Source of the DNA: Ylistrum balloti
Taxonomy: Eukaryota
Length of the DNA: 64,000 nt
Reading direction: 5' to 3'
Assembly: GCF_031769215.1 (NCBI RefSeq)
Contig: NW_026782207.1
Coordinates: 620,001 to 684,000 of the forward strand
Position 1 is the first letter of the stretch, and the number at the start of each line of letters is the position of its first letter. Shown here piece after piece: positions 27,001 through 33,000 of the stretch. Made by a program: the position numbers.

Positions 27001-30000
27001 CTGGAAACAGGTTTAGGGTACATTGCCTTTAGTAATGTAGCCATGTCGATTATTTTGCATTTGCTTTGATGCCAATTATATTCCCTTTTAACATATTTCT
27101 TTGTTCTTCTGTCCAAATTACTGAGTACCGGTCCTAAAGAATACAGCATTATTATACTCCACCAACCCCTTGCAACAAGTTAGAGAGGGAATACTGGAAT
27201 CGGCTTGTATGGCCATCCATCAGTCCATAAAAAAATTTCATCCAGACAACTCTTATATTTTTGGAGCAAATTTTGTTGAAACTACACAGGAATATTGGCC
27301 ACCATGTGTAGGTTTTTTAGCAGAAATTATGGTTACCATGGTTACCATATACACAGGTTTTAATGGAAAAAAAATTGTTCTGACATCTCCTCCTAAACCT
27401 ACAAATTGATTTCAATGAAATTACATAGGACTTTTAGGTACCATGTATAGACGTACATGCAGGTTGTTTTAGCAGAAATTTCGGCTGCTATGGTAAACAA
27501 GTCACTATACACAGGTTTTTATGTATGGGCGTTAACCCATCAATCCTTTGACTAATTTTATCTAAATTTGATTAGGTGGTGTAACTTGATCAATGCTTGT
27601 AGGTTTCTGATTGGTTGAATGGAGATATCGTCTAATTTGTGCTGAAAAAAAAAAACAAGGGTTTTGAAGGAAGGCAATTACAATAGTACCATTTCCAAAA
27701 ACATCTGATGTCATTTGGATGCTTTCGTAAACATATAAGACCCATAAGACTGCTCTTTACCAGTCCTCTCCAAGTGTTTTCCTATACACATTTTCATACA
27801 AAGTACCATAACTCTAAGCACCTCCATTGATTTTATTTTAAACTTGATATAGATAATTATAGCCTATAATTTGACATATTAAGTGTTTTGTTACCATGGA
27901 AACATATTGGAGGCTTCTTATTGGTTGTAATTAAGATATTATCTGATTAAGTTGAATATTTAAATAAAAAGGTGTAGGGAGATAACAAATACAATGATTC
28001 ATTTTTAGTGAAAAAAATGGCTGCCATTTGGTTGCCATGGTGACCAAATTGGAGAGCATTGGTACGTGTGGTGGGGGTTATTAAGTGATAATTTGTATGT
28101 TACATTGAAGTTGTGATTATTATTCTCTTGTTAATTTGATTTGGAGTGGAGTGAGCCTAAGTTATTATTACAGTGTGTTTATTTTTTTCAGAGCAAACTA
28201 GTTCAGCGGTTACCAGTTACAAATATTCTGCTTGAATCTGATTCGCCAGCTCTTGGACCAGAAAAAGATGTTGGTATTTTTTAAAAATATTATTTACAAA
28301 ACAACCATTTTACATGTTTCAAAGGGATATTCTGAACAAGTGTTTTGTTTTTTACCTCTCTAGAACTCTTTCTTATTATATTTAAAAGTATTTAAAAAAA
28401 ATACCTCCTGCCAATATTGATTGGGGAATTCGGATACAGTCACTCACTTGATCATATGTTTTATGCAAAGAATTAATACTGGTTTACAGGTGTGCATGTT
28501 GTTCAGGTATAATTTCTGCTGGCACATGTATCAGAATTCCATTGTTTCATTTGGCTAATTTCTTGACGAATTTGAAATATACAGATATTTCACACTCTTT
28601 CGTTAATAAAAAGGAAATCTGAAATGGCTTAATCATGGTCGAGCTGATGTTTGTAAATCAATCTAGCTAGATCTATATGCAATTTTCACATTTGGAATAT
28701 TGTATGTTTGTGCTGAATATCCTTATTAACAATATTTATAATTGCGTGGATTTACAAAATTTCAATGACTTTGTAAAAGCTATGTGTTTTATGATGCTAA
28801 AGATAAAATCATATTGATAAAAGATAAAATTATATTAATTTCAACTGGAGGAAATTATCACAATTACAGGATTGTATGCAATTTATTTCCATTGCAAGTA
28901 TGAATATGAACACTGAAGATATTAAATGTGATTTCATGGGACTGTGAAATCAATTGAATCAAGACCTTGGATGATGTGGATTACTGATATATAGTTTACT
29001 TACCTCAGAAATGTTTGTATATAGATGTTATTGGTTTAATTTATTTTTTCTATCATGTTTGAGACTTAAAGTAGCTTGATTTTGTCATTACAGGTGAGAA
29101 ATGAACCAAAAAATATTTTGTTATCTTGTGATTACATCGCTACAAGGAAGAAGTTAGACGTCCATGAACTGAGCAGAATCACCACAATGAATGCCTTAAA
29201 ACTATTTCCTAAACTTGCAAGAGTAATAAAATGATCACCAGTATCTATATTTTACTTGGTTTATGTTAACAATATGAGCTTGTCAACCATGTAAGCGATC
29301 CCTGTCTTATTTGACACCCTGTGGATTCCAACGAACTGACAGCTTAGATACATTATCAGAAAAATCAACATTCTATCTGGGATTTCATTTAAAAAATACC
29401 TGGTAGGACTATAGTATTTTACCTATGACAAGTTTTAAAAACACTTGGGGATGTCAGGTACTAGAGGATGGATTGAGCAGGCCTCATTATACAAATGTAC
29501 TGTATTGACATACAAATGGATAATCTCAGATTCTGACATCAAAGAAATTTGGGCTGCATTATGTGTTATACTCTTACCTGTATTAAATTAACCATTCCAA
29601 TGGATACCCAAGAGGTTGAACGGTCAATAATTACATGCACAAGTTTACTTTGTTTTAAATCAAATTTATTTGAACACCCACAATGCGGCGCACATTGCAC
29701 TTGAGCAAATGTTTAAAATGAACATAAATCCATAGATATAGAATAGTAATGACATTCTGACTCTCTCTGTATACCATGTACATAATACTGACAAGTAACA
29801 GGTAATAATGATAGAAAACCTACTAAAATCTGACTAAATATATATAAGCTTTATAAAAAAATTCATGATAAAATTCTGTAACAGAAATGTAAAAGTTAAC
29901 ACTAAACCTACATAAATATGAAAATACAGACATAGATACAAAGAAAAATTAATACTGATGTGTTTCTACAATAAATACACTGCATGCATGATGTAATACT

Positions 30001-33000
30001 GATTTCAAACTTGCATAACAAATAGATTTCAGATTTAAACAGATTCAATATATCAACAATACATCAACAGTTTTTTAATACTGATATCCACACACATATA
30101 TTTGACTTCCATGGTAACAGGGTGAATTTCCTTTCTTTTTCATATTGGTAAATAGATAGATGTCATATTTCTCTTTTCTCTTCACACTTTCAGGAAAGCA
30201 AAAATTCTACATATATTGACAAAGATTCCTTTTTTTCATTTTTTGTCTAATTTCAATTGTTAAAAAATGTTTACATCTGTTTGTTTGATTTATAAATTCC
30301 AATCTTCACACAGCTTGATTTTGTGATGATGAATATTTTTGGAAACCATCATGAAATCTTCATTTTCATTTCTGCATGGGTGGTCGGATCAAATCTTCAT
30401 TTGACAGTTATCTGCAACATATTAAAAGACAAAGCACACTGCATGAAACAAAAAGCCCCATCACCAAAGCAAAGCAAAATAGTTGAATATATATTGCTAT
30501 AATATGTGTCACAATATTGTAATTGGGAAGCTAACATATCATATTGACCTTTTAGCATGGAAAAGCAACTTAGTTCAATCTTGTTAAGTCTTGTTAATTC
30601 AGCCTCAATTTACCATCTTGTACATGTCCCACTATTACAATTGTATTTGGAGATAGGGATTATCAACTTTTTTCTCCCAATAAGAATTTCTCTATTTTTT
30701 CCATTAGTTAACACACTATAACCTTCACCATGATCAGTTACTGTATACATCACATATTCTGTTAGTTATATCATTTTAGTTTTTGTTATGCCGAAAATAT
30801 TTTGCCACAATATGATAACACCTCTGTTTGTTGTTTATATAGTGTGATATAAGAGTGATAATGTTCACAGTATGGGGAAAAAAACTTCTGAGTATTAATC
30901 TTGACTTGAAATGGTCAAAAGGTGCAAAGCTAGATACAGTAGGCCTCCCTTTGATGTACAGCTAGATATAGTAGGCCTACCCTTGACTTACAGCTAGATA
31001 TAGTAGGCCTCCCTTTGATGTACAGCTAGATACAGTAGGCCTACCCTTGACTTATAGCTAGATATAGTAGGCCTACCCTTGACACAGCTAGATGTAGTAG
31101 GCCTCCCTTTGATGTACAGCTAGATACAGTAGGCCTACCCTTGATTTATAGCTAGATATAGTAGGCCTACCCTTGACACAGCTAGATGTAGTAGGCCTCC
31201 CTTTGATGTACAGCTAGATACAGTAGGCCTACCCTTGACTTATAGCTAGATATAGTAGGCCTACCCTTGACACAGCTAGATGTAGTAGGTATCCCTTTGA
31301 TGTACAGCTAGATATAGTAGACCTACACTTGGCATACAGCTAGATATAGTTGGCCTCCGTTTGATGTACAGCTAGATATAGTAGGCCTCCCTTTGATGTA
31401 CAGCTAGATAAAGTAGACCTTCCCTTGATATACAGCTAGATATAGTAGGCCTACCCTTGACATACAGCTAGATATAGCAAGCCTACCCTTGACTTACAGC
31501 TAGATATAGTAGGCCTACCCTTGACATACAGCTAGATACAGTTGGCCTACCCTTGACATACAACCAGATATAGTAGGCCTACCCTTGACATACAATTAGA
31601 TATAGTAGGCCTACTCTAATATACAACAATATATAGTAGGCCAATCCTTGACATACAACTATATAAAGTAGTCTTACAATTGGCATACAACTAGACATAG
31701 TAGGACTTCCCTTGATGTACAACTAGACAAAGTAGGCCTATACTTGATGTACAAGTAGATACAGTAGGCCTGCCCTTGATGGAAATAATAGAAATGAAGA
31801 AGCACGTCATGCGTTGTGATACGTGTACAAAATATGGAAGCAGTTTAAGCTTACACAATGTACATCCACTCATCAACAGCAAGAAACTCCGTTGTAAACC
31901 CAATACTTACAGTGATCTGGAAAATGTCTCCGCTCTAAGTGTGTAGGTGCATCTACTGTGAAGGTACACCTTGGTTCGTAACCCGGTCGGTGTTTATCGA
32001 AAACGGAGCTACTGAACTGTTGGGGGTCGTGTCTTCGTTCCTTTCGACACCAGCTTTCTTCCTTTTTCGATTCAACAGCACACCAGGACTCTCTCGCTAG
32101 TCCCAAGCTATGTGCTGCAGCAGCTGACAGTTTTCTTCCGTTCGCATCAGCCATATTGGCAAATTATTTCACTAGGAAAAAAATAGTCTTGTTGAAGAAA
32201 ACCAAAAAAGCCTTATCACATACACTGAGACGCTCTACGCGTCCGCTGTTGCTATGACCTCACTGTAATGGAAGTTTTCAAATTTGTAGCAATTAATCAA
32301 TGATTAGAAAAAACTGTCATCTATTTTAATTGGATTAAATATACGATTAAAAACAAAATAACGTCACACATTAAAGATGAGTATCGTAAATTACGCAGAA
32401 CTATCTCGCAAGGAAGTGCGGAAGGATATATTCTCAAAAGAAGTCCTCTTTAGGTAGCACACCACTAAATCATGACCTCTGTAGTTCATTTGATTTTGTA
32501 TTCCTTCTTTCTTTATTTCCCCGTTTCCATCACATAACTGATAATTATGACGCTTTTTTCTTATAGAAATTAGAGTCAGGGACATGTAAAAGGGATGACA
32601 TACAATGGTGTTCTATACATTAATAGCAGAGCTGTGTATCGTCAGGTGGGTGTGATACACGGGTCAGGATACGATACGTATCGCGATATTTCAGAAACAA
32701 GTATTTATCTTATAACCAACTTTTGATAACTAGGAAAATGATTTCTGCAGCTTGATGGCACCTTTAGATTTGAATACTATTTGTGTATATGAATATGTAA
32801 TAATTATCATTGAATAAAAATCAACACTGTTTATTCATTTCATAGAAAATTAGTGTCCACATGTTTAGATTCCAGTGTGCTCCTCTGAGCTGTAATTATG
32901 TCTCCCACACAGGGAAATGTGCATTCCTTTTCTACCATTGAAATTTATTTTCTTTAATATTTATGCAAGGAACTTTCTTATATATCGCTACTTCTCCGAA

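What the first reader, a model, noticed from the sequence alone, without database searches (positions are those of the whole stretch)
29094..32260. SPATA45-like microprotein gene tail-to-tail with TATDN3: possible mollusc-to-human microsynteny
Seen: an 88-aa two-exon gene with a twice-repeated RRHxP motif, convergent with TATDN3, with an X-box half-site upstream. Established (from memory): human SPATA45/C1orf227 lies next to TATDN3 at 1q32.3 in convergent orientation and has been reported as an axonemal microtubule-inner protein of sperm. Inference: the linkage may date to the bilaterian ancestor, and such a short gene is easily missed by annotation.
Basis: partly seen in the sequence, partly recalled or inferred. 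Interest (0 to 1): 0.65.

Follow-up and report, generated by a model that had tools for sequence, protein, structure and literature searches.

The report
Scallop SPATA45 gene beside TATDN3
A tiny scallop gene, already in public annotation, encodes a protein found inside sperm-tail microtubules (SPATA45) and lies tail-to-tail with TATDN3, the neighbour it also has in mammals, which hints at a very old gene pairing.

Summary
Exon 1 (32154-31911, minus strand; 81 codons plus one base) is 100% identical to NCBI's 'protein SPATA45 homolog [Ylistrum balloti]'. It matches the sea-urchin sperm doublet-microtubule chain 8snb_9T 'SPATA45' at E 8.9e-17. An invertebrate profile reaches named mammalian and reptile SPATA45.

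Its peptide equals the C-terminus of a Mizuhopecten 88-aa protein and fits the family's C-terminal pattern. NCBI's 87-aa model uses another last exon at 25722-25703, inside TATDN3 intron 7.

TATDN3 has 12 plus-strand exons (16634-29234) and is convergent with SPATA45. Accession numbers and scaffold sizes put the two genes side by side in three scallop genera. A goat gene list gives FLVCR1, SPATA45, TATDN3, NSL1. In amphioxus the accessions are 1,268 apart, an indirect hint against adjacency.

The X-box half-site is at chance level. The gene was not missed by annotation. Gene, family and axonemal role are known; only the deep microsynteny is possibly new, and it stayed untested in intermediate phyla.

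The parts
31911..32154 (-). SPATA45-homolog exon 1 coding part: ATG at 32154, 81 codons to 31912, plus the first base of a split codon at 31911 (phase 1). Donor GT at 31910-31909.
   Evidence: Translation. 100% identity and coverage to NCBI XP_060072802.1. E 8.9e-17 to PDB 8snb_9T 'SPATA45'.
30389..30411 (-). Proximal last exon, coding part: two bases completing a Tyr codon, then N-C-Q-M-K-I and TGA.
   Evidence: Sequence and acceptor context. The peptide matches 7 of 7 residues at the end of Mizuhopecten OWF36166.1 and 6 of 7 of the Pecten maximus protein. 9 of 10 full-length invertebrate homologs in A3 end in Ile with a similar pattern.
25703..25722 (-). Distal alternative last exon, coding part (Tyr completion, I-G-L-A-V, TAA). 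It is used by NCBI's 87-aa model and lies in TATDN3 intron 7, so this isoform overlaps TATDN3 exons 8-12 antisense.
   Evidence: Located by script and read. The NCBI protein ends this way. Mizuhopecten RefSeq ends Y-I-G-L-T-V, 5 of 6 alike.
30928..31781 (.). 32-bp minisatellite (26.9 copies, 81% matches) in SPATA45 intron 1.
   Evidence: Tandem Repeats Finder.
29094..29234 (+). TATDN3 last coding exon (exon 12) with its stop codon. An AATAAA at 29225 overlaps the stop.
   Evidence: tblastn of NCBI TATDN3, residues 236-281, 100% identity. Pfam TatD_DNase E 2.8e-4 on the exon alone, below the family cut-off. Poly(A) hexamers.
16634..29234 (+). TATDN3 coding span, 12 exons. Approximate exons: 16634-16726, 17316-17354, 17795-17872, 19164-19211, 20082-20120, 21900-21962, 24140-24220, 26042-26074, 26285-26341, 26541-26654, 28192-28269, 29094-29234.
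   Evidence: tblastn of P0018 against the window. Exon 10 searched alone: 128 of 132 candidates at E<=0.001; the best hit is Ylistrum balloti TATDN3 at 100% and most named hits are vertebrate TATDN3.
32248..32261 (-). X-box-like site upstream of SPATA45 exon 1, with 2 mismatches to the recalled consensus. Not distinguishable from chance.
   Evidence: 53 such sites in the window against 52.5 expected.
27332..28044 (.). Cluster of three palindromic near-perfect X-box matches (27332-27345 and 28031-28044 with 0 mismatches on one strand; 27890-27903 with 1). It lies in TATDN3 intron 10, which is also inside the long SPATA45 intron of the distal-exon isoform. Role unknown; listed as a possible regulatory part.
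   Evidence: 4 distinct sites at <=1 mismatch in 64 kb, 3 of them within 713 bp; sequence; the region is not repeated elsewhere in the window.

Best explanation
This is the scallop (Ylistrum balloti) orthologue of SPATA45, a protein of about 88 residues. In sea-urchin sperm SPATA45 is built into the lumen of the axonemal doublet microtubule: an A-tubule inner protein repeating every 48 nm and touching protofilaments A10-A11 and B01-B02. By homology the scallop protein most likely does the same in sperm flagella, and perhaps in other motile cilia. Its conserved R-E-S-W-C block and its two basic [KR]-[KR]-H-[FY] motifs would be the tubulin-contacting segments; that step is inferred. The gene has one long coding exon, a phase-1 intron and two alternative short last exons. 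The proximal one gives the family-typical C-terminus. The distal one sits inside an intron of TATDN3, the convergent neighbour, so the two transcription units interdigitate at their 3' ends. The TATDN3/SPATA45 adjacency is shared by three scallop genera and by mammals. I judge it about 0.65 likely to be inherited from the common ancestor of protostomes and deuterostomes, and lost or loosened in some lineages.
For: Identity: exon 1 is 100% identical to NCBI 'protein SPATA45 homolog [Ylistrum balloti]'. phmmer against PDB gives 8snb_9T 'SPATA45' at E 8.9e-17, the only significant hit of 5 listed. Profile A1 gives E 6.5e-27 for the same chain. Profile A2, run against 1.84 billion representatives, gives 159 hits at E<=1e-3. 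I looked up 10 of them, and 3 belong to clusters named SPATA45: opossum E 2.8e-9, bat 3.6e-6, and a rattlesnake cluster 1.2e-4. hhalign of A2 against opossum SPATA45 gives probability 98.4% over 70 columns. R21, S23, C25, H42, R62, E74 and H77 are invariant from scallop to mammals. Role: a review table lists sea-urchin SPATA45 as 83 aa, A-tubule, 48 nm, A10-A11 and B01-B02 (passage). Gene model. In 7 of 16 rows of A1 a Cys follows the last exon-1 codon, as expected when a T|GT donor at the same place is read through (inference). Neighbour: TATDN3 maps as 12 exons and its exon 10 finds TATDN3 proteins. Adjacency elsewhere: Ylistrum XP_060072800 and XP_060072802 on a 734,081-bp contig; Pecten maximus XP_033734294 and XP_033734295 on one chromosome; Mizuhopecten XP_021341088 and XP_021341090, also OWF36167 and OWF36166, on one 290,845-bp scaffold. 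The goat list reads FLVCR1, SPATA45, TATDN3, NSL1 (passage).
Against: The local Pfam copy gives no hit for exon 1, although the database labels its homologs PF27952. No mammalian SPATA45 chain appeared in either PDB search. There are no expression or proteomic data for the scallop, so the sperm or cilium location and the use of either last exon are inferred. Synteny rests on two distant lineages only. In the amphioxus hybrid annotation TATDN3-like is XP_078589560 and the SPATA45 homolog is XP_078590828, 1,268 numbers apart; by the heuristic that works in scallops they are not adjacent. The salmon list places nsl1, atf3 and batf3 between spata45 and tatdn3, all within 250 kb. No other gene recognisable in the window matches the mammalian neighbourhood: the next gene is a large HEAT-repeat gene, and nothing resembling NSL1 or FLVCR1 was found. 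The human orientation is recalled, not checked.
Confidence: 0.8

Rival explanations
1. The adjacency of SPATA45 and TATDN3 in scallops and in vertebrates arose independently by chance rearrangement and says nothing about the bilaterian ancestor.
For: The amphioxus accessions are 1,268 apart. The salmon list does not put the two genes next to each other. No further gene of the mammalian neighbourhood was recognised in the window. A whole-genome scan that flags remembered coincidences can meet the one or two pairs expected by chance genome-wide (my estimate).
Against: A given gene has 2 neighbours among roughly 20,000-25,000 genes, so chance adjacency of a named pair is near 1e-4, and less with the same convergent orientation (my estimate). 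The pair is stable across three scallop genera. Truly conserved ancient pairs are known to outnumber chance ones (recalled literature).
Confidence: 0.15
2. Only NCBI's 87-aa transcript (distal last exon at 25722-25703) is real, and the proximal exon at 30411-30389 is an unused look-alike. The genes would then overlap rather than merely converge, and the reader's 88-aa model would be wrong.
For: RefSeq models for Ylistrum and Mizuhopecten both use the distal type of ending. Such models are usually built with transcript support (general knowledge, not checked here).
Against: The proximal peptide matches 7 of 7 residues at the end of the Mizuhopecten GenBank protein OWF36166.1, 6 of 7 of the Pecten maximus RefSeq protein, and resembles oyster isoform X1. 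It fits the ending shared by 9 of 10 full-length invertebrate homologs. The distal ending is seen only in two scallops. The acceptor has a good pyrimidine tract.
Confidence: 0.1
3. The scallop protein is a family member but does not act as a doublet-microtubule inner protein, for example because it has another role in spermatogenesis.
For: No scallop structure, proteome or expression data were available. Mammalian SPATA45 did not appear among PDB chains in my two searches. Humans tolerate a rare whole-gene deletion of SPATA45 (passage).
Against: Identity to echinoderm and hemichordate homologs is 40-49% over nearly the full length, with all hallmark residues kept. The sea-urchin protein is modelled over residues 1-46 and 55-83 of 83 inside the doublet, so almost the whole conserved sequence is structural there.
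Confidence: 0.08

Closest known systems
NCBI RefSeq XP_060072802.1, 'protein SPATA45 homolog [Ylistrum balloti]' (87 aa)
   Same: It is the same gene. Exon 1 is identical over all 81 residues.
   Different: It uses the distal last exon (25722-25703) instead of the proximal one (30411-30389) that carries the family-typical ending.
Sea-urchin SPATA45, PDB 8SNB chain 9T (83 aa; UniProt A0A7M7RHE9 according to the review table)
   Same: Same family (E 8.9e-17 single sequence, 6.5e-27 profile), same size, same conserved blocks. It is a solved A-tubule inner protein with 48-nm repeat.
   Different: Different phylum. The C-terminus reads S-Y-S-H-L-A-I in the closely related Diadema protein against Y-N-C-Q-M-K-I here. 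The location in scallop is inferred only.
Mizuhopecten yessoensis OWF36166.1 (88 aa) and XP_021341090.1 (87 aa)
   Same: They show the same two alternative endings as the window and the same neighbour TATDN3 on one 290,845-bp scaffold, with accessions 1 or 2 apart.
   Different: 78% identity over exon 1.
Vertebrate SPATA45 (named examples: Monodelphis domestica, Phyllostomus discolor, Crotalus tigris)
   Same: The R-E/N-S-x-C block and both [KR]-[KR]-H-[FY] motifs are kept. Reached by the invertebrate profile. Listed next to TATDN3 in goat.
   Different: Only 27-32% identity, a longer N-terminus, a C-terminus ending A-I-F-G, and a weakly similar middle part.
Ancient conserved microsyntenic gene pairs of metazoans (recalled: Irimia et al. 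2012; Simakov et al. 2013; neither read here)
   Same: Two unrelated genes kept adjacent in distant phyla. One gene hosts parts of the other in its introns, as in the 'bystander gene' model.
   Different: This pair was not found in print: 0 papers hold 'TATDN3' with 'microsynteny' and 0 hold 'SPATA45' with 'synteny'. Supplementary tables of synteny papers could not be seen. Conservation is shown here for two lineages only.

Membership tests
SPATA45 family (UniProt UPF0732 / Pfam PF27952) | Significant sequence match to a protein characterised as SPATA45 | tested here: met
   8snb_9T 'SPATA45': E 8.9e-17 and 6.5e-27 with profile A1. NCBI names the identical protein 'SPATA45 homolog'.
SPATA45 family (UniProt UPF0732 / Pfam PF27952) | Homology reaches vertebrate SPATA45, not only invertebrate 'homologs' | tested here: met
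   Profile A2 hits clusters named SPATA45 of opossum (2.8e-9), bat (3.6e-6) and rattlesnake (1.2e-4). hhalign probability 98.4%.
SPATA45 family (UniProt UPF0732 / Pfam PF27952) | Hallmark residues: the R-E-S-W-C block and two [KR]-[KR]-H motifs about 35 residues apart, in a protein of 80-100 aa | tested here: met
   R21, S23, C25, H42, R62, E74 and H77 are invariant in 14 sequences from scallop to mammals. 23 columns are invariant among 16 close relatives.
SPATA45 family (UniProt UPF0732 / Pfam PF27952) | Match to the Pfam model PF27952 | tested here: inconclusive
   The local Pfam copy returned 0 families for exon 1 at E<=10. The protein database nevertheless carries a precomputed PF27952.1 label on the identical NCBI protein and on most homologs. 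The model seems absent from the local copy.
Doublet-microtubule inner proteins (MIPs) | Physical location inside axonemal doublet microtubules | not testable with these tools
   Known only for the sea-urchin orthologue (PDB chain; review table). The primary paper was not held.
TATDN3 (TatD-family nuclease), for the neighbour | Orthology to vertebrate TATDN3 rather than another TatD paralogue | tested here: met
   Exon 10 alone: the best hit is Ylistrum TATDN3 at 100%, and most named hits are vertebrate TATDN3 at 66-87% identity. The full NCBI protein maps to 12 exons in the window.
Ancient (bilaterian) microsyntenic pair | Adjacency in at least two distant phyla | tested here: met
   Scallop: the window itself plus two further genera by scaffold and accession. 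Mammals: goat list order and the same interval in pig. The human arrangement and orientation are recalled.
Ancient (bilaterian) microsyntenic pair | Adjacency in intermediate or outgroup lineages (amphioxus, echinoderms, annelids, cnidarians) | tested here: inconclusive
   Only an indirect test was possible. The amphioxus accessions are 1,268 apart, which speaks against adjacency. No eukaryote genome collection was available for the rest.

The most novel reading that the evidence does not exclude
TATDN3 and SPATA45 form a convergent, interdigitated gene pair of bilaterian age. SPATA45's alternative last exon, and perhaps an RFX-type X-box cluster that drives this ciliary gene, lie inside TATDN3 introns. 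No chromosomal break could then separate the genes without damaging one of them, and that constraint would have held the pair together from molluscs to mammals.
Probability: 0.2. Interest if true: 0.5.

Novelty: new member of a known kind. Interest (0 to 1): 0.3.

Why it matters
The gene, its family and its axonemal role are already known, so the finding adds little there. Two points could be useful. First, the RefSeq model for this scallop lacks the family-typical C-terminus, a part that is ordered in the sea-urchin doublet structure; annotators and sperm-axoneme proteomics should consider both endings. Second, if genome inspection confirms that the TATDN3/SPATA45 pair is linked across phyla, it would be a compact case of conserved microsynteny with a visible structural reason (overlapping 3' ends). 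It would also give independent support for the orthology of a fast-evolving microprotein.

Tried and rejected
- **Pfam on exon 1:** no family at E<=10. I do not take this as evidence against membership, because the family's model appears only as a precomputed label in the protein database.
- **X-box upstream site:** tested against shuffles and rejected as chance. At <=1 mismatch the window holds 7 matches against 3.6 expected, and 8 of 100 shuffles reach 7. The window as a whole is therefore not enriched; only the clustering of three sites is odd.
- **More of the mammalian neighbourhood in the window:** Pfam on 20 open frames on either side found nothing significant. The best was HEAT_EZ at E 0.0015 on 56425-56766. 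The Atlas search on one exon of the large minus-strand gene returned only generic HEAT/ARM-repeat clusters and no specific name. NSL1 is poorly conserved and a run of N lies just upstream of TATDN3, so its absence is not shown.
- **Primary cryo-EM paper (Leung et al. 2023):** not held. I used the PDB chain name and a review's table instead.
- **RNA searches:** Rfam at gathering thresholds and ARAGORN on the whole window found nothing.
- **Joined model:** the spliced model was searched exon by exon. Only exon 1 is long enough to search. The two last exons (7 and 6 codons) were compared by eye with the ends of database proteins. The joined exon-1-plus-exon-2 protein was not built or searched.
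- **Supplements:** supplementary tables of synteny papers were not available.
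Full report
**What is there**

The window is AT-rich eukaryotic DNA with many intronic minisatellites. It holds two runs of N, at 3643-3875 and 15864-16089, which I left alone.

On the minus strand an open frame starts at ATG 32154 and gives 81 residues up to 31912. One further base (31911) is followed by GTAAGT, so the exon ends in phase 1. The product carries E-R-R-H-D-P at residues 39-44 and E-R-R-H-F-P at 74-79.

**Identity**

- Searched alone, exon 1 is 100% identical over its full length to NCBI's 'protein SPATA45 homolog [Ylistrum balloti]' (87 aa). 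It is 78% identical to the Mizuhopecten protein and 74% to the Pecten maximus protein. All 16 candidates scored E<=10.
- Against all PDB chains, the one significant match of 5 listed is 8snb_9T, named SPATA45 (83 aa, E 8.9e-17). The other four are DAXX chains at E about 0.1.
- A profile of 16 close relatives raises the 8snb_9T match to E 6.5e-27.
- A word-indexed profile search found 78 proteins at E<=0.01 among 848 candidates. Many are named 'SPATA45 homolog': oysters, a brittle star, a crinoid, sea urchins, hemichordates, a nemertean and amphioxus.
- A second profile (A2, 16 sequences from six phyla) was run against 1.84 billion representatives. It found 159 proteins at E<=1e-3, 68 at <=1e-10 and 5 at <=1e-30.
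- I looked up 10 of these hits that have vertebrate-like lengths, and 4 clusters carry names. Three are spermatogenesis-associated protein 45: opossum (E 2.8e-9), a bat (3.6e-6) and a cluster holding the rattlesnake protein (1.2e-4). One is a snail hypothetical protein. Six are unnamed, and I did not fetch them.
- hhalign of A2 against the opossum protein gives probability 98.4% over 70 columns.
- In a 14-sequence alignment from scallop to mammals, R21, S23, C25, H42, R62, E74 and H77 are invariant.
- The local Pfam copy gave no hit, although the database labels the relatives PF27952. I read this as a model missing from the local copy.

**Gene model**

The spliced model was examined exon by exon. 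The joined protein was neither built nor searched.

Two short last exons fit the phase-1 donor:

| Feature | Proximal last exon | Distal last exon |
|---|---|---|
| Coordinates (minus strand) | 30411-30389 | 25722-25703 |
| Acceptor | tgttgcag, 14 of 20 pyrimidines upstream | ccctcag |
| Coding content | completes a Tyr codon, adds N-C-Q-M-K-I and a stop | completes a Tyr codon, adds I-G-L-A-V and a stop |

The proximal peptide matches well outside this species:
- It equals the last 7 residues of Mizuhopecten OWF36166.1 (88 aa).
- It shares 6 of 7 residues with the end of the Pecten maximus RefSeq protein.
- It resembles oyster isoform X1.
- It fits an ending shared across phyla: 9 of 10 full-length invertebrate sequences in A3 end in Ile.

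The distal ending recurs only in the Mizuhopecten RefSeq protein, with 5 of 6 residues alike. Mizuhopecten thus carries both endings in two annotations, and Crassostrea virginica also has two isoforms with different ends.

Which exon is used, and where, needs transcript data.

In 7 of 16 rows of A1 a Cys follows the last exon-1 codon. This is expected if genomic open frames read through a T|GT donor at the same position, so the intron position seems conserved among relatives (inference).

**Neighbour**

- The plus-strand exon 29094-29234 matches TatD_DNase weakly on its own (E 2.8e-4, below the cut-off).
- Exon 10 (26541-26654), searched alone among longer proteins, found 128 of 132 candidates at E<=0.001. 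The best is 'putative deoxyribonuclease TATDN3 [Ylistrum balloti]' at 100%, followed by scallop and many vertebrate TATDN3 proteins.
- That 281-aa protein maps to 12 plus-strand exons from 16634 to 29234.

TATDN3 and SPATA45 are therefore convergent. With the proximal exon, 1,154 bp separate the two stop codons, and poly(A) hexamers for both genes lie in that gap. With the distal exon, SPATA45 runs antisense across TATDN3 exons 8-12, and its last exon sits in TATDN3 intron 7.

**Synteny**

No eukaryote genome collection could be searched, so I used indirect evidence.

*Scallops.* In Ylistrum, where the window shows adjacency directly, the two RefSeq proteins are XP_060072800 and XP_060072802 on one 734,081-bp contig. 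The same closeness holds in two more genera:
- Pecten maximus: XP_033734294 and XP_033734295, on the same 53.5-Mb chromosome.
- Mizuhopecten: XP_021341088 and XP_021341090, and GenBank OWF36167 and OWF36166, on the same 290,845-bp scaffold.

*Vertebrates (passages only).*
- A goat paper lists RPS6KC1, ANGEL2, VASH2, FLVCR1, SPATA45, TATDN3, NSL1, BATF3.
- A pig paper puts both genes in one association interval.
- A salmon paper lists both in one 250-kb window, but with nsl1, atf3 and batf3 written between them.
- A human paper places SPATA45 at chr1:213.0 Mb in hg19.
- That human SPATA45 is convergent with TATDN3 is my recollection only.

*Against universal conservation.* In the amphioxus hybrid annotation TATDN3-like is XP_078589560 and a SPATA45 homolog is XP_078590828, 1,268 numbers apart. 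By the heuristic that works in scallops they are not adjacent. This is indirect, and a paralogue cannot be excluded.

*Window neighbourhood.* The other recognisable gene in the window is a large minus-strand HEAT/ARM-repeat gene at about 37.7-63 kb. That is not what the goat list puts next to SPATA45 in mammals.

*Weighing.* Chance adjacency of a named pair is about 1e-4 (my estimate), so inheritance from a common ancestor is the more likely reading, at about 0.65. It remains unproven.

*Literature.* I found no paper holding 'TATDN3' with 'microsynteny' or 'SPATA45' with 'synteny'. Supplements of synteny papers could not be seen.

**How it most likely works**

- Shown elsewhere: in sea-urchin sperm SPATA45 (83 aa) is an A-tubule inner protein with 48-nm repeat. 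It touches A10-A11 and B01-B02 and is modelled over residues 1-46 and 55-83 (review table; PDB chain). The primary paper was not held.
- Inferred: with 40-49% identity to echinoderm and hemichordate proteins, the scallop protein probably occupies the same site in sperm flagella. The conserved blocks would be the tubulin contacts.
- Not shown: expression, isoform use and any regulation.

**X-box**

The upstream site at 32248-32261 has 2 mismatches to the consensus as I recall it. Such sites are as common as in shuffled sequence: 53 against 52.5, with 45 of 100 shuffles reaching 53.

Stronger sites exist elsewhere. Of 4 distinct sites at <=1 mismatch in 64 kb, 3 lie within 713 bp (27332-28044) in TATDN3 intron 10. 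That region is not repeated elsewhere in the window. Their meaning is unknown.

**Verdict**

The gene was not overlooked by annotation, and the axonemal role is already known from another phylum.

The possibly new elements are modest:
- the conserved C-terminal exon missing from the RefSeq model of this species;
- the interdigitation of SPATA45 with TATDN3;
- a probable but untested deep conservation of the pair.

Noticed in passing
window 27332-28044: Three palindromic near-perfect X-box matches lie within 713 bp in TATDN3 intron 10, with ATTGG (CCAAT-box) motifs close by. They are not part of a repeat found elsewhere in the window. This could be an intronic RFX-bound element or a hidden promoter.
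   Followed up: partly
window 32377-32454 (+): A 26-codon open frame starts with ATG 223 bp from the SPATA45 start codon on the opposite strand and ends at a possible AG|GTAG donor. It could be the first exon of a divergent gene sharing the promoter. Pfam gave no hit and no further exons were identified.
   Followed up: partly
window about 37713-63000 (-): A large multi-exon HEAT/ARM-repeat gene lies upstream of SPATA45. The Pfam HEAT matches are weak and the Atlas gives only generic HEAT/ARM clusters. The sequence reminds me of HEATR5-type proteins, but that is recollection, not a result.
   Followed up: partly
window 6483-9269, 20357-21728, 22203-24147, 30928-31781, 39030-39473, 50145-51376, 60732-61962: Many long minisatellites with 31-51-bp (and multiple) periods sit in introns and intergenic DNA. 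Two lie in TATDN3 introns, and the one at 22203-24147 shows a strong GC skew.
   Followed up: no
protein P0075, not in the window: A guinea-fowl RefSeq model named FLVCR1-like (529 aa) carries both a TatD and an MFS domain. This looks like a TATDN3-FLVCR1 read-through model, which would fit the two genes lying on the same strand on either side of SPATA45 in birds.
   Followed up: no
literature (PMC4379406, passages): Humans carry a rare (<5%) deletion of all SPATA45 coding sequence, reported as introgressed from Neandertals. The gene is therefore not essential for viability.
   Followed up: no
window 15864-16089: A run of N lies about 550 bp upstream of the TATDN3 start codon (16634), just where a divergent partner such as NSL1 or the shared promoter would be. 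It was left untouched, so the 5' neighbour of TATDN3 stays unknown.
   Followed up: no
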